Origin: a virus
DNA: 64,000 nucleotides
IMG/VR virus record: IMGVR_UViG_3300008117_000010
Span: 32,001 to 96,000 of that record
Reading direction: 5' to 3' (one strand)
Within the stretch, counting starts at the first letter, position 1. Every line of letters starts with the position of its first letter. The notes below the pieces were generated by a model. That model saw only the letters and a program-made list of their open reading frames with translations. It did no database searches and was not told where the DNA came from. Position numbers and translations under genes: made by a program. This document shows, in pieces, positions 7,171 through 43,000 of the stretch.

Positions 7171-7174
7171 AGTT

Positions 7175-18022: not shown

Positions 18023-18064
18023 TATTTATTATCTTGTAATATAATTCTAACTATAAATATAACT

Positions 18065-18433: not shown

Positions 18434-18435
18434 TT

Positions 18436-21246: not shown

Positions 21247-21250
21247 ACTA

Positions 21251-27000: not shown

Positions 27001-27303
27001 GCTATTATTTCTAGACATACTAATACGCGTGTTGAAAGAGTATTTAACTTAACAAATCAATATAACATTGATTATGGTAATTTAGGTGGTAGTTCTTCTA
27101 TAAGAAGAGATTCAAATGGTAATGTTTTCTTATATCAAACATCTGCAGAATATGATCCACAAACAGGAAGAATAATAAATACTCCGTTAGCACCTGTTTA
27201 TTTAAAAGATTTTGATATTAATCAAACTGTGGAAACGTTAAATCAAACCCATAAAGAAATCTTACAAGACAATAGTATTAACATAAAAAGAGATAGAAGA
27301 TAA
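24088..27303 (+). CDS. Putative virion cargo/ejection protein
   Basis: 1071 aa, mostly helical/coiled-coil, with a glycine-zipper-like hydrophobic segment (26251-26322). Lies upstream of the giant RNAP-associated genes. Confidence 0.55.
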   Translation: MATYIQGVTDYIPEIQPFQPDYNILAQALSTKEAQYQAGYDKISGIYGTLLNSNMTHSENIERRNKYFTQIENEIQKIAGLDLSRQDNVISAQQVFKPLINDKYIHKDMSFTKSFEDSLLASENYKRCVGENCGGQWWETGDLELAYKREEFANASLDQTLGMQNLNYTPFQNAYKMGMDFAKEMNFESQSVEITPDGRYQITRTNGQQMVPDLSQYMMATVGNDPKVADTYKTQAYVDRKNYIKANAQQYGSEEAAERQYFTEVFTAVEESNARRQAELEKQNQQIDNKKKLVEENKKTGINPAYDTDPEALLLGLDTQKEVVSINKKQADDIADLSNPSIVPNLPIDVLRSRVDAITASNSLQETLITAASNYANLTQKVEIKADEYGKMQVQHQYNMAEIAYKAQLDAEKEKKESETMADALGITDGVIVPGDVGQTDPNYNVQEEMIKREESLRGDGTAKTEHLSQVVVSQLQSVANDPNASPERRQEARRLLEDTYGVLETSTTYKEKTYLDEFVEEMKQDWESDDEFTWYNPLDLFDIAKQAADASWDYMFDDEKKESVKVEKEGYLRKDASGNLSLVKDWQNKAKTPFINDMKSANNVLELQGRIKNLITSEDFKQVIKGREDVILPDLYQAYNDIQGTEAELLAVQQAHLNNNKAVLSYIQSTPTDEYDPFIMEAREQFLDDKGNIRSLEEFAQAVMPVVANHPDREVWDWSSAAKGAMTANLIPIVGPVAGVVSGYRSGKVPMGELDQEDMMDEIESIYDEFKEDFSDAYANKDIPGITTEFSPLGGHTGAFSQGVSYQVDSMLGGMAPSNRAAGELLSAINQSGALANPKAAEATWIMGDGSMITPDVIDDQYSEDKENAIRAMMQQMSMDFLSSNPKNTTDGRPRFKITSYGTGAQNRNNVAITFTPSQAYLKGLIGSENLPGVYRSAFGKNMDQATFTLIIPREKLAQHTGSDGRPRETAIISRHTNTRVERVFNLTNQYNIDYGNLGGSSSIRRDSNGNVFLYQTSAEYDPQTGRIINTPLAPVYLKDFDINQTVETLNQTHKEILQDNSINIKRDRR

Positions 27304-30300
27304 TGGCTGAAGTAAATAGTACTCCAAATACTTTTGAAGTAAAAAGTGATTCAGGAAATACAATTAATGTTATTCCAAAAACACCAAGTACTTCATCCTC
27401 TAAATTATATGATGAACAAGCAACAGTTGGTAATAGTGTAAGTGGACCTAATCCTTCACCTACAGGTGTATCATCTACTGATCGTCTTAATAATGCGGTA
27501 TTAAAAATAAAAGATACTACCGATCCATATGCATATGCTAAACCATCAGCTTTTAATTCAACTCATACAGGATTAAACTTTGATAGATATTCAAATCATA
27601 GTCAATTTAGAAATTTAGGATTCAGTCCCTTTAGGGATAATGAAACTATTTATAATAATAATAGTTCATGGTTTGATGATTTTGGAAGAGCAGCGAGTCA
27701 ATATGGAACATTGTTTTCTGCAGGTGCAACATCCCTTTTTAAAAACTGGGGTTCATTAAGTAATACCACTCCAGACTTTGATTCTGCAAATACTATGGAA
27801 AAAGCCATGGCAATTGGTAGTTCTAGTAAATCAGGATTTGGAGCAAGCTTTACAAATTTCTTTTTAAATTCAGCATACACTGTTGGTGTAATTGCAGAAA
27901 TAGCTGCAGAAGAAATTGCACTTGGATTAGCAACGGGTGCATCTGGTGGTGGTGCTGCACCAGCAGCACTAACAAGAACAGGATTAAATATTGGTCGATT
28001 TACAAAAGCAATTGGTCAATTATTTAAAGGTGCAAATAATATTTCTACCGCTCGTAAAGTTTGGAATGTTGCAAAAAAGATAACACCCTTTGGTGATACT
28101 GCTGATTTAGCACGTGGATTAATAAAAGGAGAACGTGCAACATTAAGAGGAATTTATAAAGACTATAACTCTCTAGATAATTTTGCAAAATCAAAAGCAT
28201 TATTTGGTCAATTCTATCGTGATGTACGCGAAATAAATGCTGCCTCATCAGAATCTAAATTAGAAGCAGGAATGGTTAGTAATGAAGTTTCTGCTAAACT
28301 AATTGATGAATTCTACAGAGATAATGGTAGAATGCCTAACTTTAATGAATCACAAGTTATTCATAGTCAAGCACTTCAAGCTGGATCAGAAGCATATTTA
28401 TATAATATGCCTGCTATATACTTTAGTAATAAATTAGTTTTAGAAGGTGCTCTAAAAGGTATTAAACCTTTTAGATCAATAATGAATAAAGTACCTAATA
28501 ATCTTAGACCTGTTATTAAAACCGTGGATGGTAAAAAAACAGCAAAGGTTTATGATATGAATAATATCAAGAGTTATTTAAATCTTGATTCAATAAGAAT
28601 GTTAGGTAAAGCTTTACGTCCTAAAAATTTAGTTGGTACTGGTATCAGATATACTAGTGCAAATTTTGCAGAAGGTTTACAAGAAGTTTATCAAGAATCA
28701 TTATCTGCTGGACTTATAGATCACTATACAAATAAAAACTTTGGTCAAGAACGTCTTGGTCAAGCTGGATTATTAAATAGTTTAAGATTAGGTGCAGCAG
28801 AACTTGATAAGCAAAATATGGCTTTAGAAACATTTTTATCAGGTTTCTTTATGGCAGCTCCTATTGGAGGACTTCAAACAATTGCATTTAAGAAAGCTCC
28901 TAGATTATATCAAAAATATAGAAATCCAGAAAAGTATAAGCAATATATTGATGATAGAAAAAATGCAATTACAAAATTAGAAAATTCATTAAATGCAATT
29001 ATTAATGATCCAGCAAAATTTGCAAATGATTTTTATGCAAATGCAACTGAACAAAATAATTTAATTACAAGACAATTAGAATCAGAAGAAGCAGGAGATA
29101 TCGCCGGAGCAAAGAATATTAAAGAGCAATCTTTCTTTGAGCATGTTCACACTTTACTTAAACATAACATGCTTGATGAGTTTCAAACTCAAATGCGTGA
29201 TTTATTAAAGTTAGATGATACTTCATTAAAAGAAGCATTTGGTAATGGTCGTGAAAGCATAGAAGGGGATTCATTTAATGCTGGATTACGTGATCGTATA
29301 AATAAAGCTATATCACGTGCAGATCGTCTTAAAGAAAGATATGAAGAATCAAATGAAAAGTTTGTTAATGATTATAATCCAGATACTGAACGTGATTTAT
29401 ATGAGGCATTTGAAGAAGGAAAGAAAGCCTATTTATTTAATGAGTTTATGTTTGAACGAGTTGGCTCTAGAATACAATCAATGACTGGTTCATTAGCTAG
29501 TAATCCAAAACTATCACAAGTATTAGGTGGTGATATTGCAATATTATTTGATACAACTGCAGGAGGAGCATTACAAAGCAAAATAAAAAACTTAGAATCT
29601 GAAATTAAAATATACGAACAAGCAACTACAGCCGAAGACAAAGAAATTTTAAAACAAAAACAAGAAGAATACGAAGGGTTAAATACTTGGTATTCAGCTA
29701 TAACTGCATTTGAAAGAACATATGATGAAAGTGTTAAGTTAGAAAACTTTGATCCAAGCAAAGCAGAAAAATTTGTATTACAATTTCCAAAGGGATCTCC
29801 TATTGAATATACAAATACTAAAGGTGAAAAGGTTGAAGGTAAATTTGTAGGTGTATTAGGTAAAAATATATTAATTGAAATAGTAAATAAGAAAGGTAAA
29901 AAACAAAGAGTTGCAGTAGATAGATCAAAAACTGCATTTATGGGTGAGCAAGATATTGATTTATCAGCTCAAGAAATACAGTTTGGTGATCAAACTACTT
30001 TAGTAGATTCAATGGTTTATATGCTTGAAGCTTTATTTGGGCAAGTAGATAGCAGTTTTCAAATTAAAGGTATTGAACCATTAAAAGGATATCTTAATAC
30101 TCTTGCTGGACCCAATGGTCTTAATATGACCAAAGATGAAATGGGTGAGATATTTGCTAATGTTTTAGACATTGTGCGTTTAAGAAAAGATTCAGCACGA
30201 CACATTAATGCATTAAATATATTAACTGATCCTGATTACTTTAATTCAAATGTTGAAAAAATTGGCCAATTAATTAGTACAGCAAATCGCTTAGCTAAAA

Positions 30301-33300
30301 TAAAAGTAAAAGCTATGCTGGATGATTATGAAAGAATGATGGATAATCATCACTTACTACAAGAACTTTATGAGATTGGAATATTTTTAGATCCAAATAA
30401 CGTTGATGCTCTTGTTAATAAAAATAAAATACCATCAAGTTTTTATGCAGCAACAAATCTACCAAACATTCCTGAACTAACACAAATTGATCCTAGTAAT
30501 CCTCAGCACAAAGATATATATAATAAAATCTTAGAAGTTCTAGAATCATATGAGGCTTTAAAAGGAATTGAGTTTGTAGGTAAAGTTGATCCTACAGCAA
30601 TTAGTCAAACAATTCCTTTAGGACAACAGTTTCAAAAACAAAAAGGTGATGAAAGAACTATTCTTGATTTAGCTACTGAATATGGATTTAATAAAGATAA
30701 TCCTACAGATATAAGTGCAAAGGAGTTATTACAAAAAATAATAGACAGTCAATTTGGTTATTTACCTGATAAACAATTAGCACGTAGATTATTATCTGTT
30801 ATAAAAGATGATATTAATATTAGCTTTAATAGAAACCATCCTGTCGCAGTATCATATGATACTACTAACGGTATAGTAATCAATCCTAATTTCAGTGCTG
30901 CTAATTACAGAACTGGAATATTAAATATTGAAAAAGTTATTCTTAATGGATTGATGCAAAAGTTAGTTAATGATAATTTAACTAATGCAAAATTTAAAGC
31001 AGATATTGAAAATATTAAAACCAAGGTTCAAGAAGCTATTGTTAGTGGTAAATTAAATGCTATTATTGAACAGCTTGAACAACAATGGAATGTTGTATTT
31101 CCAAAAAATGAAAAAGGAGATATTATTATTGATGATGTAGTTGGATTAAAAAGCATTGAACAGTTTGTTGCAATGGCAATGACTGATCTCTCATTTCAAT
31201 CTATACTAGCTAATACAATTACTGAAGAAACAAATAAAAGTGTATGGCAAGAATTTTTGGAGTCACTCAGAAACTTGCTTGAACAAATAACTGGATTATA
31301 TAAAGGTGGTAATGCATTAGAAGAAACATTAAGAATTACTTCTACTGCAATACTTGGTGAACAAATAACTGAAACTCAAACAACTGCTGAAGAAATAAAT
31401 GTCGCTACACCTTTACAACAACTACCAGAAGATTTAACAGATGCACTTAATGTTGCATGGAATGAATTATCACCTGAAGATAAACAAAGTTACGGTAGCA
31501 TTGATTCATGGATTCAAGGTTCATCTGCAGCAGCAACCATAATTAATAATTATAAAAAGAAGAAAGAAAAGAAAGAAGTTGGAGATGATAAAAAAGGATT
31601 GATACAAAATACATTAACAGTTGCACAGTTAAGTTATCTTAGAAATAAGTCGGGATTAGAAGAGAGTGACATATTTTCTATGGAACTTCCCGAGTTAATT
31701 GAAATTGTTAATGGTAAATTTAGAGTTCTTGCTCCAAATGAAAATCAAAATTTAACTAGTGCCCAATTACAAGAAGGAAGAATAATCAAAACCTTCAATG
31801 GAATTACAATGACTAATGTTCCTATTGGAACGCAAAATGTTGTAAATCCTGCAGTTCAACAACAACTCGTACAAATTGGTTCAAAGCTAGAAGCAATCTT
31901 TTCTAATGTATTAGGTAGAGGAGATGCTTCAAAAGTTGCACTTCTAAAAAATCAAGCAAAAGCGGTTGGTGATAATATTATAAATCAAATTAAACAGATC
32001 TATAATATTAATCAATTACAATATGATGAGAATATTAGTTCTAAAATAAGAACACTTTTAAGTGATCCTAGTAAATATTTCTTTCGAGTAACAAGTCTAA
32101 ATAATATTGTTGAAGAAATAAGAAAATCAACAAAAGATAATATTCAAGCTAAACTTAGTGAAGCTATTGAAAAAGTTTTAAAAGAACCAGACTTAAGCGA
32201 AACTTCAAAAAATTATACAGATAGAGGAACAGTTATAGATGAGTTTTTTAGAATGGGTTTACGTGGTATGTTAGACCAAGAAATTAATGACACATATGTT
32301 AATCGATTATTAGATCTCGCATATCAAAATGTTCAATCTAAACTTAATGTTCAAACGCCTATTATCTTTTCAGATAAATTTAAAAAGGATTTAACTAAAA
32401 CATTAAAGCATGTTGTTGATTACATGCGTATTAATAATTATCGTGCATTAACAGATACTAATGAGCTCTTTGGATCTATAGGTATAATTCCTGTTAGTGG
32501 TCAAGTAGACTTAGTGCTCTATAATGATAAAGGTGATTTATTGATTTTAGATATTAAAACAATGATGCCTAAAAATGATAGAGCTAAATTTAAAGGGTAC
32601 GCAGAATCATTTGAAGAAACATTAGTTGAAGATAGAGTAGGTTATGTAGAAAAAGATACAGCACAATTAAACATCTATAGAGAGTTAATACAATCTTTAG
32701 TTGGTACTGAACTCAATAAGAACAATATGAGAATTCAAGGAATGGGTATTCTGCCTTTACTTGTTAATATGTCTATTGCGGGTAATGGTACTAGAACTAT
32801 CAGTTCAATTGAAATATCTCCTAGCGTAAGTAATGTCAACAATAAAAATAAACCTATTGGTTTATATATTCCTATAATAGAAAAGACAACAGTTGAATTA
32901 TTCCCAGAACTTTATCCACAAGCTCCACCTGCTACAGGTATTGATGCAACTGAATTAGCTCGAAGAAAAAAATTAGTTGGATGGACCGCATCATATGAAC
33001 TAGCTACAATTGCAAAAAGAGAAGGTATAGATTTATCTAAATTATCTAGAGAAGAATATGCTAACTACGCTATTAAAAACGGATTAAAAATAGATGACTC
33101 ACAGCTTAGAACAAATCCTAAACATAGAAATGCAACTAGTTCACAAGAGGTAGGAGAGATGCTGAAAGCTGATAGAGCATCATTATCTGATGTAACAAAG
33201 AAAGCATTTAATTCTTTTTACAATGCAATAATGGCTATTGTGAATAAACCTCAAGCAGAGAGGTACTTAGCTCAAAATGTAAGACTATATTCAGATACTA

Positions 33301-36300
33301 AAAATTCTAACTCATGGTTATACTTTGGTATAAATAATGGAACTAATACCAATGAATCTTTTACTCATAAAAGTTATTTCTCATTAAAAAATTTAAATGA
33401 TTTTTCTCCAGAACTTTTTAGAGACTTTATGATAGAGCTTCAAAAAAGAGGTTATAATGGAGGAGTTAAAATATTTCAAGATTTAGAAGTTCAAGGTCCT
33501 GCTTTAAGTGATCAGGTAGTAATGCATGGTTATTCAGAAAATGATGCTAAACTAGCTTTACAAGTAGCTAAAGAGTTTTATGGAGATAAAATATTAGAAT
33601 CATCTTATGGTAAAGATGAAGTTATAAACGGTAAAAATATGTCTTATAGTCAAATTCTTTCTGATAAAATAAAAGAAAGAGTTGACTCTGGAAATACACA
33701 ACCATTAGAAGGAACTACACCACCACCAGCAGCTCCTGTTGTTGATGTTGTAACTGTTTATCATCATACAAATGTAAAACCTGAAGATTTTAATTTTGGA
33801 ACTTTTCAAAGAGGTAAAGAACAAGTTAGCCAATTTGGTGATGGTTTAAACGCATCTTCTACAACTACTCCTTTTTTAGTCCAGAGATACGGTCAGCCAA
33901 TACAAGGAGAAATTAAAGATTCTGATTTTATTGTAATTGATGCTAATAAAACAGAGAAAGAACTGTATAACGAACTTAGAGCTAAAGGATATAATTTTAA
34001 TAATCCAGCTACAGGTTCTTATATTGGAAATGATCCAGCTAAAGAATATGATGGAACTGAAAAAGCAAATGAACAACCTGCCATAATATCTTTATTTAAT
34101 GATTTTCAAAAATCTAATCCTGAAGTAAAAGGAGTTAAAGTTGTAAATCATATTATTGGTAATCAAAAAGTTGATCCTTTTTACGTCATATATGATGCTA
34201 AGTCATTTTATGGACCAGGTTCATTATCTAAAAAAGCTCCTGTTTCTGATCAAGCTAAGAAAGCTGATATAGAAATAGGCAAAATAGCAAACACAGAATA
34301 TGAAGTTAAATCTGATGGAGTTTATTATCAAGGTAAAAAACTTAATAATCCTCAAAATAAAACACACAGACAACTTATTGAAACTGATATAGAAAGAAGA
34401 AAACAATCAGAGCTTAAGTTTTATACTGGAAATGATTTAAAACAACAAATAACAGACCTTCTAAATTCTGAAGTACCAGTTCCTGAAATAACTGTAAAGA
34501 TTAATAATCCTCTTTGGAATAAGCAAAGAGCTGCACAATTAGAAGCTTTAGATAATAATGCAAGAATACCAAAAAAAATAATCAGAGCTGCGTTTATAAA
34601 CACACAGTTTATTGTTAATGGTGAAAAATATATTATTGAAAAAGATTCTAAGTATGCTTATAGTAATGTAAGAAAAGAGTCTAATAATGAGATTATAGGT
34701 AAAATAACTGATGGTGGATATGATTATGATGGTGAAACAATAAACAAAGATGCTTTCTTAAAACTCTTAAAAAATGTAGATTCTCCTAAGATTAGTGAGT
34801 TCATGGAGAATAAAATTAACGCTAAGTATAAAGCAGAACTAGCTGCTTTAGAAGGAGCTAAATCTACAACTCCTGTTTCTGATATAGAAAGAAGAAGACA
34901 AGAGTCTATAAACTCTATTGTAGAAACTTATAATAAGGGAAATGATTTAATTATAGGAAATGCAATAATTACTAAAGCAGATGGTACTACAGAATCAATA
35001 TCTGATTTAAAAGATGTTGTTACAACCGGAGATCCTTTTCAAAGATTAAAAGATAAAATTAATTCTAGATACAAAGAACTAGCTGCTTTAGAAGCTTCTG
35101 TTTCTAATGTAGAAGTTAAAAATACTATATCAAATGGTGATAAAATTATTAGTGTACAAACAAAACCTGTTACAGATGAAATAACAGATACAGCAGAAGA
35201 TTTATTTATTCTTCCAGACAATAATCCAGAAGGTAGAATCCATATAAATATGGAACCCTTAAAAGATATTTTAGTTGTTCCAAATAATACTCTGACTATT
35301 ATAGACAAAAAAACAGGTAAAGAAATAATTAATAAAGAGCTTAATCCAGAGGGAGCTGTAATATTTGAAGCTATGCAAGGAAGACTCTTTGTTGTAGCTA
35401 ATATTAATGGACAACTCGTTCCATTTTATAAATCATCTGCAGGTACATCTGGTAAAACACAAGGTGCTTGGTATCCTTTCTTTGGTTATACAGGAGCTTG
35501 GTTAGTAAAAGGAGGTATTGATAAAGCTACTGGTAAAATGTCTTATTCTCCTGAGATTGATAAAGTTACAGATCTTTTAAATGAAAATTTAGTATTTCCT
35601 GATAAGTATATAGACAGAGCTACAAATAGTATAAAAAATACAAAAGGTGAGATAATTATTGATATGAACCAAGCTTTCAAAGTAAATAGACTTTGGCAAA
35701 AAGAGTTTGGATCTCAAACAGGTACAGGAACTAATTATGAAATAAAAGGGTTAAAAGAAAATACAAGAAGTGAATCAGGACTAGTTGCTCTTATTACAGG
35801 ACTGAATACTACAGAATTAGATAGTTCTAAAACACCAAAAGAAAACTCTGAGTGGTTTAATCTTATAAGTAAAAATGCAGAACTAGCTACTTCAGAAGGT
35901 AAAAAAGAAGAACCCATACCAAGTATTATTAATAGTAAAACATTAAGAGATAATAAAATCATTTACATATCACCAGTATTAACTATTCCTAATGAAATTA
36001 AAGATGATAGTGCAGTATTGTTTTATGATGATTATGCAATTGCAGCAATTAATAATTTAGGATTTTTAAAGGAAGCTGTAACTCGTGATAATTATTATCA
36101 AGTTATTAATGATGTCTTTTATAGTGGCGGATATACATCAGAACAAGTATTAGCATTTAGAAATGCTATAAATGAGACAGCATATAATTCAATAATTAAT
36201 GCATTAAATGAATCTCCTGAAAAAGTTATTATTACAAGTAATATAACATTTTTAGATGCTAGAGCAAAAGATGTATCAATTGCTATTGTATATGATAATA

Positions 36301-37022
36301 TTGAAGAGTATCCACAAAAGAAATTAGCCGTACTAGAACAAACTTTTAAGAAACAAAATCGTTTACGAGTTGCAGATTCAAAGAATATTGTCGATATTCT
36401 TGATAAGGACTTAGATACACTTCCAAGTCAAAGAAAGGAAACAGTTAAAATATCTGGTGAGAATTATGAATCATGGATAAAAACTGCTGAACTACCTTCT
36501 TTGTTTTTATTAATTAATGAAATAGATTCAATGGAAGATCTTGATTTTCAATTTGAAAAAACAGATTTAGGTAATTTATCGGAAAAAAATTATCTTTATC
36601 TATTAGTTCGAAATGAAATCATTAGTAGAATGAAAAAGGGTATTGTAGATAAAAAGACATTAAAGAGTTTAGCACCTGCAGGTTCAGTAGTTATAATGGA
36701 AAATAGTCAGCTTTATCCTAGAGGATTTGGGTATGTTACAAAATCAGGCAATGTTATGCCTTTATATCCTGAACAATCTTCAGGAGATACTGATTTTAAA
36801 ACATATGGTAAAGCCCCATCTAGTTCTAATAAAGTAATTGCAATAATGCAATCTATGGAATTAGGTGAAGGAGAAACTACCACTGATGAAAATATACAAG
36901 CAAAAGAAAACTTAGAATCAATAAAAGGTAATCCTTTATCTACTGATGAGCTTAGTGAAATTGCTAATAACCCAGAGGATATAACAGATGCCCTAAATAA
37001 TTTTAAAGATAATCTTTGTTAA
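27303..37022 (+). CDS. Giant polyvalent virion protein (membrane-like N-region, PD-(D/E)XK nuclease, variable effector cassette)
   Basis: 3239 aa with an Ala/Gly-rich hydrophobic segment (27873-27971), GQVDLVL...LDIKT...QLNIY, and repeats ADIERR / ELAALE. Coupled to the previous gene by TAATG. Confidence 0.7.
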   Translation: MAEVNSTPNTFEVKSDSGNTINVIPKTPSTSSSKLYDEQATVGNSVSGPNPSPTGVSSTDRLNNAVLKIKDTTDPYAYAKPSAFNSTHTGLNFDRYSNHSQFRNLGFSPFRDNETIYNNNSSWFDDFGRAASQYGTLFSAGATSLFKNWGSLSNTTPDFDSANTMEKAMAIGSSSKSGFGASFTNFFLNSAYTVGVIAEIAAEEIALGLATGASGGGAAPAALTRTGLNIGRFTKAIGQLFKGANNISTARKVWNVAKKITPFGDTADLARGLIKGERATLRGIYKDYNSLDNFAKSKALFGQFYRDVREINAASSESKLEAGMVSNEVSAKLIDEFYRDNGRMPNFNESQVIHSQALQAGSEAYLYNMPAIYFSNKLVLEGALKGIKPFRSIMNKVPNNLRPVIKTVDGKKTAKVYDMNNIKSYLNLDSIRMLGKALRPKNLVGTGIRYTSANFAEGLQEVYQESLSAGLIDHYTNKNFGQERLGQAGLLNSLRLGAAELDKQNMALETFLSGFFMAAPIGGLQTIAFKKAPRLYQKYRNPEKYKQYIDDRKNAITKLENSLNAIINDPAKFANDFYANATEQNNLITRQLESEEAGDIAGAKNIKEQSFFEHVHTLLKHNMLDEFQTQMRDLLKLDDTSLKEAFGNGRESIEGDSFNAGLRDRINKAISRADRLKERYEESNEKFVNDYNPDTERDLYEAFEEGKKAYLFNEFMFERVGSRIQSMTGSLASNPKLSQVLGGDIAILFDTTAGGALQSKIKNLESEIKIYEQATTAEDKEILKQKQEEYEGLNTWYSAITAFERTYDESVKLENFDPSKAEKFVLQFPKGSPIEYTNTKGEKVEGKFVGVLGKNILIEIVNKKGKKQRVAVDRSKTAFMGEQDIDLSAQEIQFGDQTTLVDSMVYMLEALFGQVDSSFQIKGIEPLKGYLNTLAGPNGLNMTKDEMGEIFANVLDIVRLRKDSARHINALNILTDPDYFNSNVEKIGQLISTANRLAKIKVKAMLDDYERMMDNHHLLQELYEIGIFLDPNNVDALVNKNKIPSSFYAATNLPNIPELTQIDPSNPQHKDIYNKILEVLESYEALKGIEFVGKVDPTAISQTIPLGQQFQKQKGDERTILDLATEYGFNKDNPTDISAKELLQKIIDSQFGYLPDKQLARRLLSVIKDDINISFNRNHPVAVSYDTTNGIVINPNFSAANYRTGILNIEKVILNGLMQKLVNDNLTNAKFKADIENIKTKVQEAIVSGKLNAIIEQLEQQWNVVFPKNEKGDIIIDDVVGLKSIEQFVAMAMTDLSFQSILANTITEETNKSVWQEFLESLRNLLEQITGLYKGGNALEETLRITSTAILGEQITETQTTAEEINVATPLQQLPEDLTDALNVAWNELSPEDKQSYGSIDSWIQGSSAAATIINNYKKKKEKKEVGDDKKGLIQNTLTVAQLSYLRNKSGLEESDIFSMELPELIEIVNGKFRVLAPNENQNLTSAQLQEGRIIKTFNGITMTNVPIGTQNVVNPAVQQQLVQIGSKLEAIFSNVLGRGDASKVALLKNQAKAVGDNIINQIKQIYNINQLQYDENISSKIRTLLSDPSKYFFRVTSLNNIVEEIRKSTKDNIQAKLSEAIEKVLKEPDLSETSKNYTDRGTVIDEFFRMGLRGMLDQEINDTYVNRLLDLAYQNVQSKLNVQTPIIFSDKFKKDLTKTLKHVVDYMRINNYRALTDTNELFGSIGIIPVSGQVDLVLYNDKGDLLILDIKTMMPKNDRAKFKGYAESFEETLVEDRVGYVEKDTAQLNIYRELIQSLVGTELNKNNMRIQGMGILPLLVNMSIAGNGTRTISSIEISPSVSNVNNKNKPIGLYIPIIEKTTVELFPELYPQAPPATGIDATELARRKKLVGWTASYELATIAKREGIDLSKLSREEYANYAIKNGLKIDDSQLRTNPKHRNATSSQEVGEMLKADRASLSDVTKKAFNSFYNAIMAIVNKPQAERYLAQNVRLYSDTKNSNSWLYFGINNGTNTNESFTHKSYFSLKNLNDFSPELFRDFMIELQKRGYNGGVKIFQDLEVQGPALSDQVVMHGYSENDAKLALQVAKEFYGDKILESSYGKDEVINGKNMSYSQILSDKIKERVDSGNTQPLEGTTPPPAAPVVDVVTVYHHTNVKPEDFNFGTFQRGKEQVSQFGDGLNASSTTTPFLVQRYGQPIQGEIKDSDFIVIDANKTEKELYNELRAKGYNFNNPATGSYIGNDPAKEYDGTEKANEQPAIISLFNDFQKSNPEVKGVKVVNHIIGNQKVDPFYVIYDAKSFYGPGSLSKKAPVSDQAKKADIEIGKIANTEYEVKSDGVYYQGKKLNNPQNKTHRQLIETDIERRKQSELKFYTGNDLKQQITDLLNSEVPVPEITVKINNPLWNKQRAAQLEALDNNARIPKKIIRAAFINTQFIVNGEKYIIEKDSKYAYSNVRKESNNEIIGKITDGGYDYDGETINKDAFLKLLKNVDSPKISEFMENKINAKYKAELAALEGAKSTTPVSDIERRRQESINSIVETYNKGNDLIIGNAIITKADGTTESISDLKDVVTTGDPFQRLKDKINSRYKELAALEASVSNVEVKNTISNGDKIISVQTKPVTDEITDTAEDLFILPDNNPEGRIHINMEPLKDILVVPNNTLTIIDKKTGKEIINKELNPEGAVIFEAMQGRLFVVANINGQLVPFYKSSAGTSGKTQGAWYPFFGYTGAWLVKGGIDKATGKMSYSPEIDKVTDLLNENLVFPDKYIDRATNSIKNTKGEIIIDMNQAFKVNRLWQKEFGSQTGTGTNYEIKGLKENTRSESGLVALITGLNTTELDSSKTPKENSEWFNLISKNAELATSEGKKEEPIPSIINSKTLRDNKIIYISPVLTIPNEIKDDSAVLFYDDYAIAAINNLGFLKEAVTRDNYYQVINDVFYSGGYTSEQVLAFRNAINETAYNSIINALNESPEKVIITSNITFLDARAKDVSIAIVYDNIEEYPQKKLAVLEQTFKKQNRLRVADSKNIVDILDKDLDTLPSQRKETVKISGENYESWIKTAELPSLFLLINEIDSMEDLDFQFEKTDLGNLSEKNYLYLLVRNEIISRMKKGIVDKKTLKSLAPAGSVVIMENSQLYPRGFGYVTKSGNVMPLYPEQSSGDTDFKTYGKAPSSSNKVIAIMQSMELGEGETTTDENIQAKENLESIKGNPLSTDELSEIANNPEDITDALNNFKDNLC
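34237..35898 (+). repeat. Dispersed direct repeats bracketing insert domains
   Basis: AGAACTAGCTGCTTTAGAAG is exact at 34835 and 35075 and 18/20 at 35879. CTGATATAGAAAGAAGAA is exact at 34384 and 34879. CTCCTGTTTCTGAT occurs at 34237 and 34870. Confidence 0.85.
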
Positions 37023-37032
37023 TTAAAAAACT

Positions 37033-40000
37033 ATGCAACTTTGTAATATTGATAAGAGTCAAAGAGAATTACTATATAGAGCTATTGCAGCTATAATTAA
37101 CGACGCAATACAAAATAAACAACCAATTGATACTAAAAAAATTGGTAATCAAATATATGATATAGTTTATAAAAAATCTCAGGATAATGCAAAAGCCTTG
37201 TCATATGTTTTATTAGTTCCAAAAGCAATAGATCAAATATTATCATTCAATGATAATTTCAAAGACTACGCCGTAGATAACAAGTTCGAATTTGATGAGT
37301 TAGCTAAATTAGTATCATCATTAAATAAGTCTTCAGAAGAAACTATATTAAATGATATATCTACTTTCTTAGGAAAGATGTCTAATAAAAATTCATTTGA
37401 AGATGCACAAAAGGATTTACAAAATCTTCAAAGTGAACAAGCTAAAAATAAAAACTCTAAAATATTAGTACCATCATCTTATTTAGCTAAGCCCGAATCT
37501 CTTTATACAACAACTGGTCAACAAGGTTTGCGTGAAGATATCAATATACCAGATCCTTCAATGCAATTTTATTATGATATCATAAAAAAATTAAATACTA
37601 ATTATATTAATGAAGAGGGCGGAGTAGTATATCCAAATGTTAAGAGCGGTTTATTTCTAAGTATAATTTCAGGAGTAAATATTGCTGATAATGAAATGTA
37701 TACTAGAGATGCTGGAAATCGTAATGAGTATAATAAAAATTTCTTTCTAGCACTTACCGATAACCTTGGTAAAATAATGTATTTCGACACTAACTATAAT
37801 GTAGTTGAAAGGAGTGCTGGTAAACCTATATACTTTCCGTTAAGAACTAATCTTGATTCTATTGTTGACAAATTAAATATTGGGCAATCACAACTAGAAT
37901 CATTAAGAGAAGCCGCTAAATTTATTAATCAAGATAAGGTTAATAATAGAGTAGTAAATAAAATAACATTTAAGAGTGACGGATATCTTAGTACAAGTAA
38001 TAGTCTACCTAAAGTAGATATAGCTAGTATTAAAAATAATAATATACTAACTTTTGTTACCGTACCAGGTAGCAATCAATTATATGTAAGCTCTAAAGGA
38101 GAATATCATTTTACAGTAGATGTTTCTTTTAAAGATTTTACAACAGTAAGAGCTAATCTCATTGCTGATTTAATTCTTAATCCAGTTTATAAAGATGGTA
38201 AACTGTTAAGTAATAATGATAAATATAATATTCTAAGTAATTGGCTCTTTCAAAGAGAAATGAAATTTGGCCAAAAGAATAAAAAGTTTTATGTAACCCT
38301 TAATGGTCAATCACTTAATCTAGAGGATAAAGAAGATTCAAAAGAAAAGATTGTTAACTTCTTAACTAGAAAGATTAAAACAGATAAAACAGAATATCAA
38401 AATAAATTTACATGGCAAAGCCGCTTACTTGAAAATAATGAAACAATATCATTATTTAGTTTAAGTGTTGAAGACGGTAAATATATTTATACAGATAATC
38501 CAGTCTCTTATCAAGAATATTTAAAGCAAATAACATTTGCTAAAATTCAAACTGTTGATGGAGAAATATTTCCAATGAATGGATATATTGGTTATGAGCT
38601 TGGTAATAGAATTAGTAAGCCAAAACCAGTTGAAACAAAAGTTGAAATAAAAAAACAAACTCCAGTTACATTAGATACGAATGAATATAATCGTGCAGTA
38701 AAAGAAGCAGATAGTAAAAAACCAATTGAACAAAACTTCTTTGATGGTTATAGACCTAATTCAGATAAAACAAAAATCCATACCATACGACCTGAAATCA
38801 CATCTATATATGGTAAAGGTGTAAAAACACTTAAACTTGTTCAAGAAGGTATTAGAACAAGATCAACTCGCTTAGCTAATTGGATGAAAGAAAATAATCC
38901 CAAAGTAGGTGATTATTTTTGGCAAATAAATAAAAAGAATCCAAGTGAAAAAGTACTAACTCGAATTACTGCAGTTTATGATAAAACTGATCCCCGCTTT
39001 AAAAACAATTGGTTTAAAGAAGGATGGGTTGATTCAGATTTTAAATATGTAGAAGACTATGCAGGTGCTATAGAATTTGAAGTTATTAAATCAGTTGTTG
39101 CAATAGGTGTTCAACCTCAAGTTACTACTGAAGAAAAATTCGATTTAATACCAACTCGTCCGATTTCAGAAATAGAAAAGGAAATTGAATCATTTGAAAG
39201 TGAAATTAGATATGCAGCTGGCCAATTAGAACAGCTTCAAACAAAAATGGAGCTTGTAGAAGATGAAGAAACTATTGAATCTTTTATTTTATCTCAATTT
39301 ACTCCTGTTAATCCTGAGTCAGCTAGAAAAGAAACAGGAACAAACATTGGAACAAAACAAGATATTAATCCAGCATTATTAAATAAAAGAGGTCCAAGTG
39401 TTGAAAGACTTGCTGAAGAAATTGGTTCATTAGCAAGAGGAGTACCTTATCATTTTAGAGCAGAGGATGATTATATCCGTGATCAAATTATTGAAATTTT
39501 AGTAAAAGGTAAAGCTAAATATAAAGAAGAATTACAAGGTGGTAATCTTCAAGATATAAAATATTATGAAGAAAGAATTAATGATATATCAAAAAAACTT
39601 GATGAGTTAAATGTTGAATTAGAAAATGCTAAACTAGCGCCACCAGTTTCTACTCCTCAAGAAACAGTTCAAATAGAATCAATTGAAGAATCAATTGTTA
39701 ATGAATCTGAGACTAAAGAAGAAGACATTGATTTAGGTGAAATTGATCCTAATGATTTAAAGAATTTATTAGAAAAAAGAATTCTTCAAAAAGAAAGCGA
39801 AGTAAAAGCAACAAATGAAAAAATTAAAAAAGCACTACCGTGGTATAATAGTATAAAAACTAAGAGCGGTAAAAAACTCTCTAGTTTTTTACCAATTAAA
39901 GAAATGTTTGATGCAGTTAATACATCAAATCCAAATGCTGTTGCACACTGGTCAATGTCCGGTATAACATTATTTAATGGTAGTGATTACTCTGATTTAT

Positions 40001-43000
40001 ATCATGAAGCTTGGCACGCATTTACTCAGCAGTTTTTAACTACTGAAGAAAGAAATAATTTATATAATGCTGTTCGTGGTAAATCAGGAACATTTGAAGA
40101 CTACAATGGAAATATTGTTGAGTTTTCATTAGCCTCAAAAAAACAAATAGAAGAATTTCTTGCAGAAGAATTTAGAGAGTTCATGTTGCGAGATGGTAAA
40201 GGTATGTATGAAAAGAAATCAATCTTTTCTAAAATCTTTAATAAAATTCGTGAGTTACTATTATGGTTATTTGATCGTACAACTTATTATGATGTCTACA
40301 ATAATAGTAAAGCAACTAGAAATATTTCAAGACTTTTTAATGAACTTCGTATTGGAGAGTTAGCAGAACCTGTAAATGAAGTTGATCCAGACTTTGCTAT
40401 TAAAGGTTTAGATAGAGTAATTAAAGTAAAAGATAGTAGCGATACATTTACAATAGAGGAGAGTAAAACTATAAGTGATACAATAGATAGTTTATTTAGT
40501 GAGTATAGTGATAAAGTAAATAACGCAACAAAAGTTAAATCAGCATCTATTCAATTACAAATAAGTCCAACATTCCAATTAAATGCATATAAGTATGCAA
40601 AGAATAGATTAATTCAAAGGAAAAATGAATTAGTTCAAAAAGTAAAAACAAAACTAAGTGAAAAGAAAATTGATGATCTTAATACAGAAGAACTCAATTT
40701 ATTTCGTAAAGACATTAAAAATATCAACTTATTAAAAAAAGCGATTAAAGCTTTTATAATTCCTGAGAATCTTAACAATGTAAAAAGTGCAAAAGAAATT
40801 GATGGAATTATTAGTAGTCACCAACAATTATCTGAATACTTAAAAGATATTGTTCAATTAGAAGAAGAATATAACATTCTTAATAATAATGTTATTGCAG
40901 ATAGAGCAGGTAATGCAAACTCATTTGAACAACTTACAGATCCCAAACTCTTATATACATTTGGTGGTGTATTTGAAAGAGATGAGAAAGGAGAAATTAT
41001 AAAAAATTCTTTAGGTTTTAATAAAACAATGGCTCCTAAGCGTGTATTTAACAAGCTTAGTAACATACTGGAGACAAATGATAATGAAAAAAGACCGAAT
41101 AATATAACGGCGCTTTATAAAAAAATGGAATCTTTACAAAAAACAGATCCATTTATTAAGGACATACTAAATAAATTAGGTAGTCCATATACTACTAATA
41201 CAAATGTTAATAGCTTATGGTCAGCTTTAGAAGTTTTAATCTTACCTGTAGCACATGTAATGCGTGCTGAAATTGTAAAGGGAGATAACAATTCTATATC
41301 TGCTGTATTTGTAACAAATGCTTCGCTTGAAACAGAATCAGCAATCCGTTCATTTGCAAACTATACTGCTGTACTTGACTCCTCAGATCCAAATAACTTT
41401 TTATTTGAGAATGCTGATGGTGTTAATATAATAGACCTGAGATCTATTTTTGTACCAACAGAGGGTAGACCAAAAAATTATGGTAACAGTAAAGCTGCTC
41501 AAGAAAACCCTTTAGAATTTTTAAGAGCCATTGGTATATATTTACCAAATGATCCTAATGTCATAAAAGAGTTAATGACAGAGGAAGCACAGGAATATAT
41601 AAATCGTTTATATAATGCCGCTTTAGAAATTAAAAATTATAATTATAGTAAAGGCACTAAAGAAAGTGACAAAATAGAAGTCTTTAGTATTAAAGAAATA
41701 CTAAAAGATTATTCAAAAGATCCAAAATATAAAAATGTTAAGAAGCTTCCTAAAGGACAAAGCGTTGCCAAAAAATTCTTTACAAAACTTTACTTAAAGT
41801 ATTCTGATCAATCAAATAACTTAAGTATTACAACAGTTGATGATAAAACTGTATTCCAAAGATCTTTGCCTAATACATTAATGATGAAAGCACAAATTAT
41901 AAATAGTGCTGATTCATTTAATAATTTAGTAAGTATTCCTGAAACTGAAGATTTAGCAAAAGAAATAAACGGTAAAACAAAAAACCCTTGGTCAAAGGCA
42001 TCTCAATTATTAAACAAAGTTTTGTTTGATGAAAAGGGTAATAAAAGAGAAGGTGCTAGAATAGATATTGCTTCTTTAGATGGATTAAAAATAAGATTAG
42101 ATGAAGTAGATTTAGCTGCCATTAAATCATCAGACTCAGATCCATACTCAAAACAATTATTAGATATTATTTTCACATTAGAATATGGTGTATCTGAAGC
42201 AACACGACACGCGGGTAAAAGTTCAACATTCCTTTTTGAGATAACAAGAAGTGATGGCTCTAAACATTATATTAATCTTGAAAAGTTTACAAGAAATATT
42301 AGTAAAGGTGAAAATATATTTAATAGTGGTATTGTAGATGCCGTAAATATTTTTGTAAATTATTTAGCTTCAGAATATGAGCGCATTCAACTTGCAACCA
42401 ATGATCCAGAAAATAAAAATATAAGAACTGGTAATGGTAAATCCATGGCCGAAGTAGGATCAGAATTTTTATTGTTTAAAGATATTATACCTAAATCAAT
42501 ACTAGACAATATTAAGTCTATTGAAGGTGTTGAAACATATGAAGATTTTTTACAGCATTTAGATAATAATGTTTCTTTAAGAGACTCTATAAAGAAAAAC
42601 ATATATAATTACTTAAACAACGTAGTTAAACAAGAATTAAATGATTTCAATAAACTAAATGTTAAAAAAGAATTCAATGATATTCTTCATAAGAAAATGA
42701 AATCAGCAAGTCAAAGAGCATTAAAGGGTGGTAAAATAACTAAAGAAACAGAACTCAATTATAATCAATTACGCAATAGTGCTATTACTGCTTATACAAT
42801 AAATTCATTAATACATAACATTGAGACTGGATTACTTTTTTATGGTGATCCAGCAATATTTAATAATAATAAACAGGATTATCAGAAACGAAATTCGGGT
42901 GCAGGATCAACAGGTATTGTAACCCGTACAGATGATGCCTATTTACAATTCATTAATAGCAAAGGTGGTCTAGGAAAAGTAAAGAATGAACAAAGAAATT

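What the first reader, a model, noticed from the sequence alone, without database searches (positions are those of the whole stretch)
32930..35900. Repeat-bracketed, swappable effector cassette inside the 3239-aa virion protein
Seen: recurring brackets PVSD/(A/T/S)DIERR(R/K)Q and KIN(A/S)(K/R)YK(A)ELAALE, with 14-20 bp exact DNA identity (34237/34870, 34384/34879, 34835/35075, and 18/20 at 35879), each enclosing an unrelated 50-250 aa insert. Pro-rich linkers (PQAPPA, TTPPPAAP) delimit further inserts, and codon choice looks shifted toward GCT/TCT by eye. Inference: the brackets form a helical-hairpin stalk displaying a variable domain, while their DNA identity provides in-frame recombination sites. 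This would be a recombinase-free array for exchanging injected effectors, analogous to polymorphic toxin cassettes.
Basis: partly seen in the sequence, partly recalled or inferred. Interest (0 to 1): 0.8.

Follow-up and report, generated by a model that had tools for sequence, protein, structure and literature searches.

The report
Swappable domain cassettes in phage protein
The middle of a giant protein that this crAss-like phage probably packs into its particle is a string of foreign, interchangeable domains joined by short conserved "adaptor" peptides whose DNA is almost identical in many unrelated phages, and near-identical phages in lake metagenomes differ by whole domains cut out exactly at these adaptors.

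Summary
The exact DNA repeats, the Pro-rich linkers and the GCT/TCT codon shift all sit at the stated coordinates.

Residues 1878-2866 of the 3239-aa protein, encoded just upstream of the crAss-type virion RNA polymerase, form a mosaic of six modules.
- Each module recurs at 60-92% identity at different positions in dozens of other giant phage proteins.
- 91 of 107 homology ends fall within 15 aa of the junctions (chance: 22).
- Two orthologs that are 98.8% identical on both sides carry unrelated central cassettes.
- Metagenome contigs 98-100% identical to the window lack 501 nt (M2) or 633 nt (M3+M4), in frame, with joints in the APV(V/S)D repeat.
- The junction peptides KINAKYDAELAALEG and ADIERRRQEEL keep rare codons across unrelated contexts (CTA 22/33 against 0.10 expected). 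This fits recombination at these tracts.
- Module M2 has an ART-PolyVal-like fold.

Not shown: the helical-hairpin structure (the AF2 model failed), virion packaging, the recombination machinery, and whether the caps are also protease sites.

This is a new variant of the known "polyvalent protein" class. This scan reached the same reading on three other genomes. I found no paper that describes the junction motifs.

The parts
27303..37022 (+). Gene for the 3239-aa giant protein (P0001). It lies immediately upstream of the virion RNA polymerase gene.
   Evidence: The gene order matches phi14:2 g067-g066-g065.
27303..32933 (+). Conserved N-terminal scaffold (aa 1-1877). It includes a sub-threshold PD-(D/E)XK nuclease-like stretch at aa 1632-1765 and ends in the PQAPPA linker (32916-32933).
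   Evidence: P0002 and P0003 are colinear at 54% identity over exactly aa 1-1877. Pfam PF12705 scores E = 0.0023, below its cut-off.
32934..33713 (+). Module M1 (aa 1878-2137), function unknown.
   Evidence: It occurs at 70-84% identity at positions 1022-1514 of five other giant proteins. No Pfam or PDB match.
33714..33746 (+). Linker TTPPPAAPVVD. It contains the first copy of the APV(V/S)D repeat (33731-33746).
   Evidence: It holds the left joint of the 501-nt skip in a contig of run X15.
33738..34238 (+). Module M2 (aa 2146-2312), an ART-PolyVal-like ADP-ribosyltransferase fold. It is absent, in frame, from a near-identical contig.
   Evidence: AF2 pLDDT 86.7. ART-fold matches: ParT Z 6.8, cyanophage A4 pre-ejectosome Z 6.5, diphtheria toxin, PARPs. 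BFVD 'PolyVal ADP-ribosyltransferase' at E = 1e-5. About 35 copies at 56-85% identity in other giant proteins. The X15 contig skips 33734-34234.
34239..34415 (+). Split N-cap, PVSDQAKKADIE | mini-module M3 (aa 2325-2360) | DIERRKQSEL.
   Evidence: The same mini-module is 79-85% identical in P0112, P0041, L088 and L121. Weak DKNYY match, E = 0.003, below the cut-off.
34416..34811 (+). Module M4 (aa 2372-2503). It contains a degenerate internal C-cap (WNKQRAAQLEALD, aa 2405-2417).
   Evidence: Together with M3 it is skipped (34235-34867, 633 nt, in frame) in a contig of run X8.
34812..34856 (+). C-cap 1, KINAKYKAELAALEG. It matches the 45-nt consensus DNA at 39 of 45 positions.
   Evidence: About 35 otherwise unrelated loci share only this island of 41-91 nt (mostly 45-65) at 79-94% nt identity. 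Contig depth spikes here in all four metagenomes.
34857..34910 (+). Linker AKSTT plus N-cap 2, PVSDIERRRQESI.
   Evidence: It holds the right joint of the 633-nt skip.
34911..35054 (+). Module M5 (aa 2537-2584), a small insert of unknown function.
   Evidence: 87% identity to P0020 over aa 2516-2599.
35055..35096 (+). C-cap 2, KINSRYKELAALEA.
   Evidence: Homology of L003 and of an 8335-nt X9 contig to M6 starts right at or after this 19-mer.
35097..35873 (+). Module M6 (aa 2599-2857), function unknown. It is shared with MS-annotated structural proteins of cultured Cellulophaga phages.
   Evidence: 65-92% identity at positions 442-1947 of about 20 giant proteins. phrog_32390 at E = 8e-103. phi17:2/phi4:1 gp039 at 63% and phi14:2 g067 at 43%. 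An X9 contig holds only 35093-35900, at 93% nt identity.
35874..35900 (+). C-cap 3, decayed (NAELATSEG). Most other M6 copies have NAELAALEG here.
35901..37019 (+). Conserved C-terminal region (aa 2867-3239), ending in the protein's only cysteine.
   Evidence: P0002, P0003 and P0075 resume colinearity here at 35-41% identity. Cys count.
37033..49578 (+). Neighbouring 4181-aa crAss-type virion RNA polymerase (context only, not part of the array).
   Evidence: DFDVD at aa 2478 and similarity to phi14:2 gp66.

Best explanation
Residues 1878-2866 of this giant protein are a horizontally acquired string of self-contained domains. The gene sits directly upstream of the crAss-type virion RNA polymerase, so the protein is most likely a capsid-packed, ejected 'cargo' or polyvalent protein.

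Each domain circulates on its own among the giant virion proteins of many uncultured phages. The domains are joined by short Pro/Thr/Ala linkers and by two conserved, helix-forming caps:
- a C-terminal cap, (K)INAKYDAELAALEG;
- an N-terminal cap, (PVSDIEAKK)ADIERRRQEEL.

The DNA that encodes these caps stays nearly identical in otherwise unrelated contexts, rare codons included. It therefore offers 20-45-nt homology tracts that are always in the same reading frame. General homologous or short-homology recombination, between co-infecting phages or between copies within the gene, can then add, delete or replace whole domains without breaking the frame.

The peptides themselves probably also serve the protein. 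An amphipathic helix that ends in Gly closes a domain ahead of a flexible linker. At least one module (M2) has an ADP-ribosyltransferase fold, so the modules are probably host-directed or anti-defence effectors.

Shown here: the mosaicism, the breakpoint positions, the DNA-level conservation of the caps, natural in-frame presence/absence variants, the foreign codon usage, and the predicted ART fold.
Inferred: packaging and ejection, the recombination mechanism, and the effector roles.
For: 1. Mosaic structure. The closest orthologs are colinear only for aa 1-1877 and from about aa 2866 on. Between these points, six modules match dozens of other 1.8-5.4-kaa proteins at 60-92% identity and at different positions.
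2. Breakpoint positions. 91 of 107 ends of HSPs with at least 55% identity lie within 15 aa of seven junctions. Random placement gives 21.6 on average and at most 39 in 2000 trials.
3. A natural swap. P0002 and P0003 are 98.8% and 98.7% identical on the two sides but carry unrelated central segments of 232 and 267 aa. The breakpoints lie at the QAPP linker and inside LAALGQQTP.
4. Natural indels. Logan contigs from two studies are 98-100% identical to the window on both sides of a joint. One skips 501 nt (M2) and one skips 633 nt (M3+M4). Both skips are in frame, with joints in the APV(V/S)D repeat. An 8.3-kb contig holds only M6, at 93% nt identity, with unrelated flanks that start right after the two ELAALE-type 19-mers.
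5. Codon conservation in the C-cap. In 33 unrelated IMG/VR contexts found with a fully degenerate pattern, synonymous sites are nearly fixed, rare codons included. CTA is used 22/33 times against an ORF-wide frequency of 0.10 (p = 6e-15). ATC is used 16/26 times against 0.11 (p = 8e-10). GCT is used 33/33 times and TTA 33/33 times.
6. Independent sample. The same holds in loci chosen only by the N-cap pattern: CTA at 27 of 43 ELAAL sites, and at 9 of 12 sites that lack the YDA prefix.
7. Islands of identity. Pairwise identity of the 45-nt C-cap is 0.84, with a median exact run of 20 nt. The flanks are at 0.33, which is random.
8. Foreign composition. Codon usage shifts sharply across exactly this block.
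9. Diverse inserts. 48 distinct N-cap...C-cap units in other phages enclose 35 unrelated insert families of 22-190 aa.
10. Breadth. A 32-position profile centred on the 15-aa C-cap finds 152 clusters (50%-identity representatives) at E <= 0.001 among 1.84 billion proteins. Of the 143 new representatives, 80 are 1000 aa or longer and 100 also carry the N-cap.
11. Effector and context. M2 has an ART fold. The neighbouring gene encodes a polymerase with a DFDVD motif. The products of g065 and g067, the genes that flank the polymerase gene in phi14:2, are virion proteins (bioRxiv 10.1101/2020.03.07.982082). PhicrAss001 polymerase-associated proteins are capsid cargo (PMC10172136).
Against: - No recombination event was observed directly. 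The variants are short, low-depth (about 4x) Logan contigs, so whole-genome near-identity is not shown. The joints do lie in repeats far shorter than the assembler's word, so a repeat-induced mis-join is unlikely.
- The joints sit at the edge of the 10-14-nt APVxD repeat rather than inside the longer caps. The X15 variant also differs by one extra Ala codon, so it is not a simple one-step deletion product.
- M1, M2 and M6 are bounded on the N-terminal side by Pro-rich linkers of low DNA conservation, so not every joint has a long homology tract.
- Conservation of synonymous sites could instead reflect recent spread of the cap together with its module, or selection on the DNA or RNA for another reason.
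- Choosing sites by a perfect peptide enriches for young copies. partly answer this.
- Virion location rests on gene order. Only the M6-like domain resembles phi14:2 g067.
Confidence: 0.62

Rival explanations
1. The caps are mainly protein signals. ELAALE|G would be a cleavage site for a virion-packed zincin-like protease, so the giant protein would be a polyprotein cut into separate effectors in the capsid or in the host. Under this reading the DNA conservation is only a by-product of recent common descent. This does not exclude recombination at the caps.
For: - The peptide is strongly conserved at the C-terminal end of many unrelated domains and is always followed by a flexible linker.
- A-x-E followed by a small residue resembles the S/A/G-x-E sites of the phiKZ prohead protease. 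This rests on my own knowledge and was not tested.
- HExxH motifs occur in the neighbouring 1892-aa protein (aa 165) and in the 4181-aa protein (aa 991).
- Orthologs of phi14:2 gp65 carry a zincin-like protease, and fused polyproteins are 'likely cleaved'.
- Polyvalent proteins are proposed to be processed autoproteolytically (PMC5512222).
Against: - A protease site does not explain the retention of rare codons (CTA, ATC) at synonymous positions.
- It does not explain a conserved 45-nt DNA island between unrelated flanks.
- No cleavage data exist.
- No MPTase-PolyVal, S77 or S78 protease was detected by HMM in the genome.
- The window's own third cap has decayed to ELATSEG while the module is retained.
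Confidence: 0.2
2. This is ordinary phage mosaicism. Illegitimate recombination happens anywhere, and selection keeps only joints in tolerant linkers. Under this reading the caps are structural domain ends and play no part in recombination.
For: - Several module borders (M1, M2 and the N-terminal side of M6) are Pro/Thr/Ala linkers with variable sequence.
- The observed indel joints lie in a short 10-14-nt repeat, not in the long caps.
Against: - Random joints plus selection predict no conservation of synonymous sites and no retained rare codons in the caps.
- They do not predict joints that fall repeatedly in the same short direct repeat.
- The right breakpoint between P0002 and P0003 lies inside the LAAL motif itself.
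Confidence: 0.12
3. A dedicated sequence-specific enzyme (a homing-type nuclease or a site-specific recombinase) recognises the conserved cap DNA and actively moves cassettes, in an integron-like or shufflon-like way.
For: - Nucleotide conservation over about 45 nt, with rare codons kept, is what a protein-recognised DNA site would show.
- The core contains the generally under-represented CTAG.
Against: - No tyrosine integrase, RecT or RecA hit was found, and the only ERF hit is weak and below the curated cut-off. Serine recombinases and HNH nucleases were not searched.
- The repeats are direct, and no excised circles or inversions were seen.
- No strong DNA or RNA structure is predicted in the cap (-5.4 kcal/mol).
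Confidence: 0.05
4. The repeats are leftovers of tandem duplication of one ancestral domain inside this gene, and the inserts are its diverged copies.
For: There are direct repeats with regular-looking spacing (240, 495 and 633 nt).
Against: - The inserts are unrelated to each other. Each has its own closest relatives in other phages at up to 92% identity.
- The same caps bracket 35 unrelated insert families elsewhere.
- The block has foreign codon usage.
Confidence: 0.01

Closest known systems
Polyvalent proteins of phages and conjugative elements (Iyer, Burroughs, Anand, de Souza, Aravind 2017, J Bacteriol; PMC5512222)
   Same: It is a giant multi-domain protein of a phage with a mosaic, rapidly changing domain content. 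It is presumed to enter the host with the DNA. It carries an ART-PolyVal-like domain. Relatives carry YbiA/DUF1768, SprT-like, histidine phosphatase and helicase domains. That paper already raises cassette-like recombinational variability.
   Different: The paper's text has no occurrence of 'linker' or 'shuffl' and does not describe conserved junction peptides. Added here: two conserved caps delimit the modules, their DNA is conserved at synonymous sites, and natural in-frame variants are joined at these repeats. No MPTase hub domain was detected in this protein.
Crassvirales RNA-polymerase-associated cargo proteins (phi14:2 gp67/gp66/gp65; PhicrAss001 gp47/gp49/gp50; PMC10172136; bioRxiv 10.1101/2020.03.07.982082)
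   Same: The gene order is the same: giant gene, then a polymerase with DFDxD, then another giant gene. phi14:2 g067 carries an IERR...INAKYDAKLAAL bracket in front of an M6-like domain.
   Different: Sequence similarity to gp67 is limited to the M6-like domain, 43% over 74 aa. The cited papers do not describe the variable cassette region.
Polymorphic toxin systems (Rhs, CdiA): conserved pre-toxin motifs such as VENN or PxxxxDPxGL followed by variable toxin ends and orphan cassettes
   Same: A conserved junction motif, at both peptide and DNA level, marks where variable effector domains are exchanged by homologous recombination.
   Different: The cassettes here are internal and arranged in series, not a single C-terminal tip. 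No immunity genes are evident. The genome holds no silent orphan cassettes. Delivery would be by phage ejection, not by bacterial secretion.
Conserved boundary ('linker') sequences proposed for modular exchange between lambdoid phages (Susskind and Botstein's modular theory; cited from my own knowledge)
   Same: Short conserved DNA tracts between exchangeable modules are proposed to guide homologous recombination.
   Different: Here the tracts lie inside one open reading frame, encode a conserved peptide, keep the reading frame, and exchange protein domains rather than genes.
Cyanophage A4 pre-ejectosome protein (PDB 9k3a chain B)
   Same: It is a solved phage ejection protein with an ART-like domain (residues 1418-1600) that matches the M2 model at Z 6.5.
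   Different: There is no detectable sequence similarity. I do not know whether it has bracket motifs.

Membership tests
Polyvalent proteins (Iyer et al. 2017) | Very large phage or plasmid protein that combines several unrelated domains in one polypeptide | tested here: met
   3239 aa with at least six independently distributed modules plus N- and C-terminal scaffolds.
Polyvalent proteins (Iyer et al. 2017) | Contains hallmark effector domains of the class (for example ART-PolyVal or MPTase-PolyVal) | tested here: inconclusive
   The M2 fold matches ART-PolyVal proteins in BFVD at E = 1e-5 and ART folds in the PDB at Z 5-6.8. The PF18760 and PF18818 HMMs give no hit.
Polyvalent proteins (Iyer et al. 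2017) | Domain architecture varies among close relatives (mosaicism) | tested here: met
Polyvalent proteins (Iyer et al. 2017) | Delivered into the recipient cell together with the DNA | not testable with these tools
   Only gene order next to the virion RNA polymerase and published virion proteomics of phi14:2 g067.
Crassvirales polymerase-associated cargo protein (phi14:2 gp67 position) | Encoded directly upstream of the DFDxD virion RNA polymerase gene | tested here: met
   The 4181-aa ORF 37033..49578 has DFDVD at aa 2478 and matches phi14:2 gp66.
Crassvirales polymerase-associated cargo protein (phi14:2 gp67 position) | Sequence homology to gp67 along its length | tested here: not met
   BLASTP finds only the M6-like domain, 43% over 74 aa. 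PHROGs finds only phrog_32390, over M6.
ART-PolyVal (Pfam PF18760) | Score above the family's gathering threshold | tested here: not met
   No hit at E <= 5 with the module alone or at E <= 10 in the whole genome.
ART-PolyVal (Pfam PF18760) | ADP-ribosyltransferase fold with a conserved His ... Glu | tested here: inconclusive
   The model (pLDDT 86.7) aligns to ParT, RES toxins, diphtheria toxin and PARPs at Z 4-6.8. H9, H10, the F33-G34-D35-G36 stretch and E58 are invariant in 35 copies. The residue after the G-x-G is Asn where PARP-type enzymes have Tyr (sequence reading; PARP comparison from my own knowledge). Activity is untested.
Polymorphic toxin systems | Silent orphan cassettes that share the junction sequence, plus cognate immunity genes | tested here: not met
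   The junction DNA motifs occur only inside this gene in the 110-kb genome. No immunity-like small ORFs lie within the array.
Integron- or shufflon-type cassette systems | Dedicated site-specific recombinase encoded nearby | tested here: inconclusive
   No PF00589 (tyrosine integrase) hit in the genome. Serine recombinases were not searched.

The most novel reading that the evidence does not exclude
The two caps are a community-wide 'standard interface'. In this reading a roughly 45-nt DNA adaptor is itself kept by selection, beyond the needs of the peptide, because it lets unrelated phages (crAss-like and others) trade injected effector domains in frame. That would be a natural plug-and-play system for protein domains, possibly helped by an enzyme that recognises the adaptor.
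Probability: 0.3. Interest if true: 0.85.

Novelty: new variant of a known kind. Interest (0 to 1): 0.66.

Why it matters
- It would give a concrete, testable mechanism for how phages reshuffle the proteins they inject: short in-frame homology adaptors at domain borders.
- The caps are a practical search handle. Anything bracketed by them in metagenomes is a candidate phage-delivered domain. Here 35 unrelated insert families turned up in a small sample, almost all of unknown function.
- It bears on the old question of whether phage mosaicism uses conserved linker sequences or only random joints.
- It suggests natural design rules for building modular fusion proteins.

Tried and rejected
- AF2 of aa 2500-2875 (alignment A3) gave mean pLDDT 42.9. 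It is unusable for the hairpin question or for the M6 fold. The N-terminal third of that alignment was largely misaligned.
- Alignment A2 of aa 2300-2610 was too noisy to fold.
- The predicted 240-bp deletion 34835->35075 was not seen. Only short-sided joints (22-25 nt) from other organisms fall near it.
- Pfam on the whole protein and on each module gave nothing above threshold. PDB sequence searches for M1, M2 and M6 gave nothing. The ESM Atlas gave nothing usable for M6 (best score 0.80).
- Foldseek of M2 against the PDB gave no hit at E <= 0.001, although the weak hits were nearly all ART folds.
- The 65-nt cap region found no match in 50,697 GenBank phage records at E <= 0.01. The query is short, so this says little.
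- The search for related loci gave only one viral locus for M6 and four metagenome loci for M2.
I could therefore not fetch DNA for P0002, P0003, P0012 or P0020. The comparison of that ortholog pair is at protein level only.
- HMM searches of the genome for RecT, tyrosine integrase, S78, S77, RecA, MPTase-PolyVal and ART-PolyVal gave no hit. ERF gave only a sub-threshold hit inside a 1690-aa ORF.
- No convincing RNA or DNA structure is predicted in the cap sequences.
- The tandem-duplication origin of the repeats was rejected.

Full report
**Context.** The window is bases 32001-96000 of a complete 110,526-bp IMG/VR virus record with direct terminal repeats and about 30% GC. ORF 27303..37022 (+) encodes 3239 aa (P0001). 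A 4181-aa ORF follows; it has a DFDVD motif at aa 2478 and resembles the virion RNA polymerase gp66 of the crAss-like Cellulophaga phage phi14:2. A 1892-aa ORF comes next. This is the gene order g067-g066-g065 of phi14:2. The products of those three genes are in virions (bioRxiv 10.1101/2020.03.07.982082). In PhicrAss001 the polymerase-associated proteins are capsid cargo expected to be ejected (PMC10172136). 'Virion protein' is therefore a reasonable inference from gene order, not something shown here. Runs that hold the sequence are recorded as lake-water, freshwater and 'fungus' metagenomes.

**Observation.**
- The 19-mer GAACTAGCTGCTTTAGAAG lies at 34836 and 35076, with a 17/19 copy at 35880. 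Chance expectation is 0.01.
- The 18-mer CTGATATAGAAAGAAGAA lies at 34384 and 34879.
- CTCCTGTTTCTGAT lies at 34237 and 34870.
- None of these occurs elsewhere in the genome.
- The peptides and the two Pro-rich linkers are at the stated residues.
- The codon shift is real and sharply bounded. GCT/Ala and TCT/Ser rise from 0.2-0.4 and 0.1-0.3 to 0.6-0.75 and 0.57-0.74 across aa ~1880-2870 only. The block is compositionally foreign.

**Mosaic structure.** A search of 5.8 billion proteins returned 113 other giant proteins (1.8-5.4 kaa), most of which match small parts of the query at high identity. Mapping the HSPs gave the following picture.
- The closest orthologs, P0002 and P0003, are colinear at 54% identity for exactly aa 1-1877 and resume near aa 2866 (P0003; P0002's second HSP starts at aa 2694).
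- M1 (aa 1878-2137), M2 (2146-2312), M3 (2313-2371), M5 (2516-2599) and M6 (2601-2866) each have their own relatives at 60-92% identity. These sit at very different positions in other proteins; M6, for example, lies anywhere between residues 442 and 1947. In P0041 the order of M2 and M3 is reversed. M4 (2372-2520) has only more distant relatives, about 35-45% identical.
- 91 of 107 ends of HSPs with at least 55% identity lie within 15 aa of seven junctions. Random placement gives 21.6, with a maximum of 39.
- M6 is 63% identical to part of the MS-annotated structural protein gp039 of the non-crAss Cellulophaga phages phi17:2 and phi4:1.

**Natural experiments.**
- P0002 and P0003 are 98.8% identical over aa 1-1896 and 98.7% identical over the last 382 aa. 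Their central 232 and 267 aa are unrelated. The left breakpoint is at '...ELYAQAPP' and the right one lies inside '(E/K)LAALGQQTP'.
- I laid Logan contigs of four runs from four studies on 32900-36000.
  - An X15 contig has 7 and 5 differences in 389 and 122 nt. It joins 33733 to 34235 and so skips 501 nt (167 codons), which is M2.
  - An X8 contig has 1 and 0 differences in 140 and 236 nt. It joins 34234 to 34868 and so skips 633 nt (211 codons), which is M3 plus M4 with one cap set.
  - Both joints fall in copies of the APV(V/S)D repeat. Neither run has any cover over most of the part its contig skips. The repeats (10-14 nt) are far shorter than the assembler's word, so a repeat-induced mis-join is unlikely.
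  - An 8335-nt X9 contig matches only 35093-35900 (M6) at 93% nt identity. Its Pro/Thr-rich flanks are unrelated and begin right after the two ELAALE-type 19-mers.
  - Locus L003 gives the same picture: M6 at 83% nt identity, preceded by an identical 20-mer cap although the sequence upstream is unrelated.

**The brackets are conserved as DNA.** In the homologous giant proteins, 86 of 114 have (E/K)LAAL and 71 of 114 have IE(R/K)R(R/K).
- A fully degenerate scan of IMG/VR for YDAELAALEG gave 37 loci, 33 of them distinct contexts. GC ranges from 24 to 46% and the flanking peptides are unrelated.
- Synonymous positions are almost fixed. The consensus is AAA ATC AAT GCT AAA TAT GAT GCA GAA CTA GCT GCT TTA GAA GGT.
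- Rare codons are retained. CTA is used 22/33 times against an ORF-wide 0.10 (p = 6e-15). ATC is used 16/26 times against 0.11 (p = 8e-10). GCA is used 27/33 times against 0.32. GCT and TTA are used 33/33 times.
- Selecting perfect peptides could enrich for young copies, so I repeated the count on loci chosen only by the N-cap pattern. At 43 ELAAL sites CTA is used 27 times (ORF-wide 0.09). At the 12 sites without a YDA prefix it is used 9 times.
- The window's own three copies and both L003 copies, none of them chosen by pattern, also use GAA CTA GCT.
- The N-cap ADIERRRQE gave 101 matching stretches (84-90 distinct contexts). It shows the same trend more weakly, because its codons are the common ones.
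- Pairwise identity of the 45-nt caps is 0.84 and 0.755, with median exact runs of 20 and 23 nt. Their flanks are at random level, 0.33.
- About 35 loci share with the 3.3-kb region nothing but an island of mostly 45-65 nt at 34806-34903. Contig depth spikes there in all four metagenomes.
- The caps are therefore either young everywhere, which means they spread and are homogenised by recombination, or are selected as nucleotide sequence. Both readings make them recombination-relevant tracts.

**What the brackets enclose.** In the fetched loci, 48 distinct ADIERRRQE...ELAAL units enclose inserts of 22-190 aa that fall into 35 unrelated families. The smallest whole unit is 48 aa: helix, loop, helix. 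A 32-position profile centred on the 15-aa C-cap finds 152 cluster representatives at E <= 0.001 among 1.84 billion proteins. Of the 143 new ones, 80 are at least 1000 aa long and 100 also carry the N-cap.

The C-cap also ends domains that have no N-cap. Examples are M6, and M2 in other phages, where it reads '...KKIEQESNAELAAL'. It is thus better described as a general domain-closing amphipathic helix ending in Gly than always as half of a hairpin. The hairpin model could not be tested. The AF2 model of aa 2500-2875 predicts helices at each cap, but at pLDDT 42.9.

**Module functions.** M2 folds with pLDDT 86.7.
- Its structural neighbours are almost all ADP-ribosyltransferase folds: ParT at Z 6.8, residues 1418-1600 of the cyanophage A4 pre-ejectosome protein at Z 6.5, RES/NatT toxins, diphtheria toxin and PARPs.
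- In BFVD the neighbours are 'PolyVal ADP-ribosyltransferase' proteins at E = 1e-5. The ESM Atlas gave the same lead.
- The Pfam HMM PF18760 does not match. M2 is therefore a divergent ART-PolyVal-like domain, and its activity is untested.
- M1, M4, M5 and M6 have no recognisable family. M3 weakly resembles DKNYY.

**Mechanism and rivals.** The best reading is in-frame exchange of domains by general homologous or short-homology recombination at the cap and linker tracts, between co-infecting phages. The genome holds no spare cassettes.

The main rival, which is compatible with the best reading, is that ELAALE|G is also a processing site. HExxH motifs sit in the two neighbouring giant proteins, and gp65 orthologs are zincin-like. 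A protease site does not explain the synonymous conservation.

Random joints plus selection explain the linker borders but not the conserved DNA. A dedicated enzyme is not excluded, but no recombinase was detected.

**Comparison and novelty.** This is a member of the polyvalent-protein class of Iyer et al. 2017 in architecture and mosaicism. That paper suggests cassette-like recombination but does not describe junction peptides. Full-text searches for the motifs found no relevant paper, and no paper combines Crassvirales with polyvalent proteins.

The same scan has reached the same reading on three other crAss-like genomes (e1-5944327, e1-5944316, e1-5767621). I saw those notes after my own tests.

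Noticed in passing
window 37017-37019 (last codon of the 3239-aa ORF); also 37042-37044, 49567-49569 and 49587-49589: The 3239-aa protein has a single cysteine, and it is its last residue. The polymerase has Cys only at residues 4 and 4179 of 4181, and the 1892-aa protein only at residue 4. Among 183 fetched giant relatives, 56 end in Cys and the median Cys count is 1. This could mean end-to-end disulfide linkage of cargo proteins, or avoidance of Cys in ejected proteins.
   Followed up: partly
window 50070-50084 (aa 165 of the 1892-aa ORF) and 40003-40017 (aa 991 of the 4181-aa ORF): There are HExxH motifs (VLHEFAHPI and LYHEAWHAF) in the two giant proteins next to the array. They are candidate zincin-like proteases, as reported for phi14:2 gp65 orthologs. 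The MPTase-PolyVal HMM does not match.
   Followed up: partly
window 32196-32597 (aa 1632-1765 of P0001): A sub-threshold PD-(D/E)XK nuclease match (PF12705, E = 0.0023) lies in the conserved scaffold just before the cassette array. Several relatives carry precomputed PF12705 hits.
   Followed up: no
L001 (Cellulophaga phage phi17:2 gp039) 7001-7747; L002 (phi14:2 g067) 9001-9222: Module M6 is shared with MS-annotated structural proteins of cultured marine Cellulophaga phages from two unrelated groups (a 145-kb Lightbulbvirus and a crassvirus). The domain pool therefore crosses phage families and the freshwater/marine divide.
   Followed up: partly
window 34250-34251: Contigs of all four metagenome runs insert 3 nt (ATA, GTA or TAG) right after the PVSD codons. 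This gives the commoner form PVSD-I-EAKK. The window's QAKK version is the odd one.
   Followed up: no
window 34239-34415: The mini-module M3 lies inside a split N-cap (KKADIE | insert | DIERRKQ), flanked by a DIE/DIE direct repeat (34264 and 34384). The same arrangement is conserved in several other phages. N-cap 2 lacks the 'IEAKKAD' segment, as if it had been deleted between the same short repeats.
   Followed up: partly
window 13802-24073: Other first-reader notes on this genome report a hydrophobic-x-x-G-G motif punctuating three further cargo-type ORFs. I did not examine it. The ELAALE and IERRR caps are absent from those ORFs.
   Followed up: no
literature (PMC7906330): The heptad AELAALE-G is also the repeating unit of a de novo designed helix-loop-helix peptide. 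This is a coincidence, but it fits the cap being a strong amphipathic helix former.
   Followed up: no
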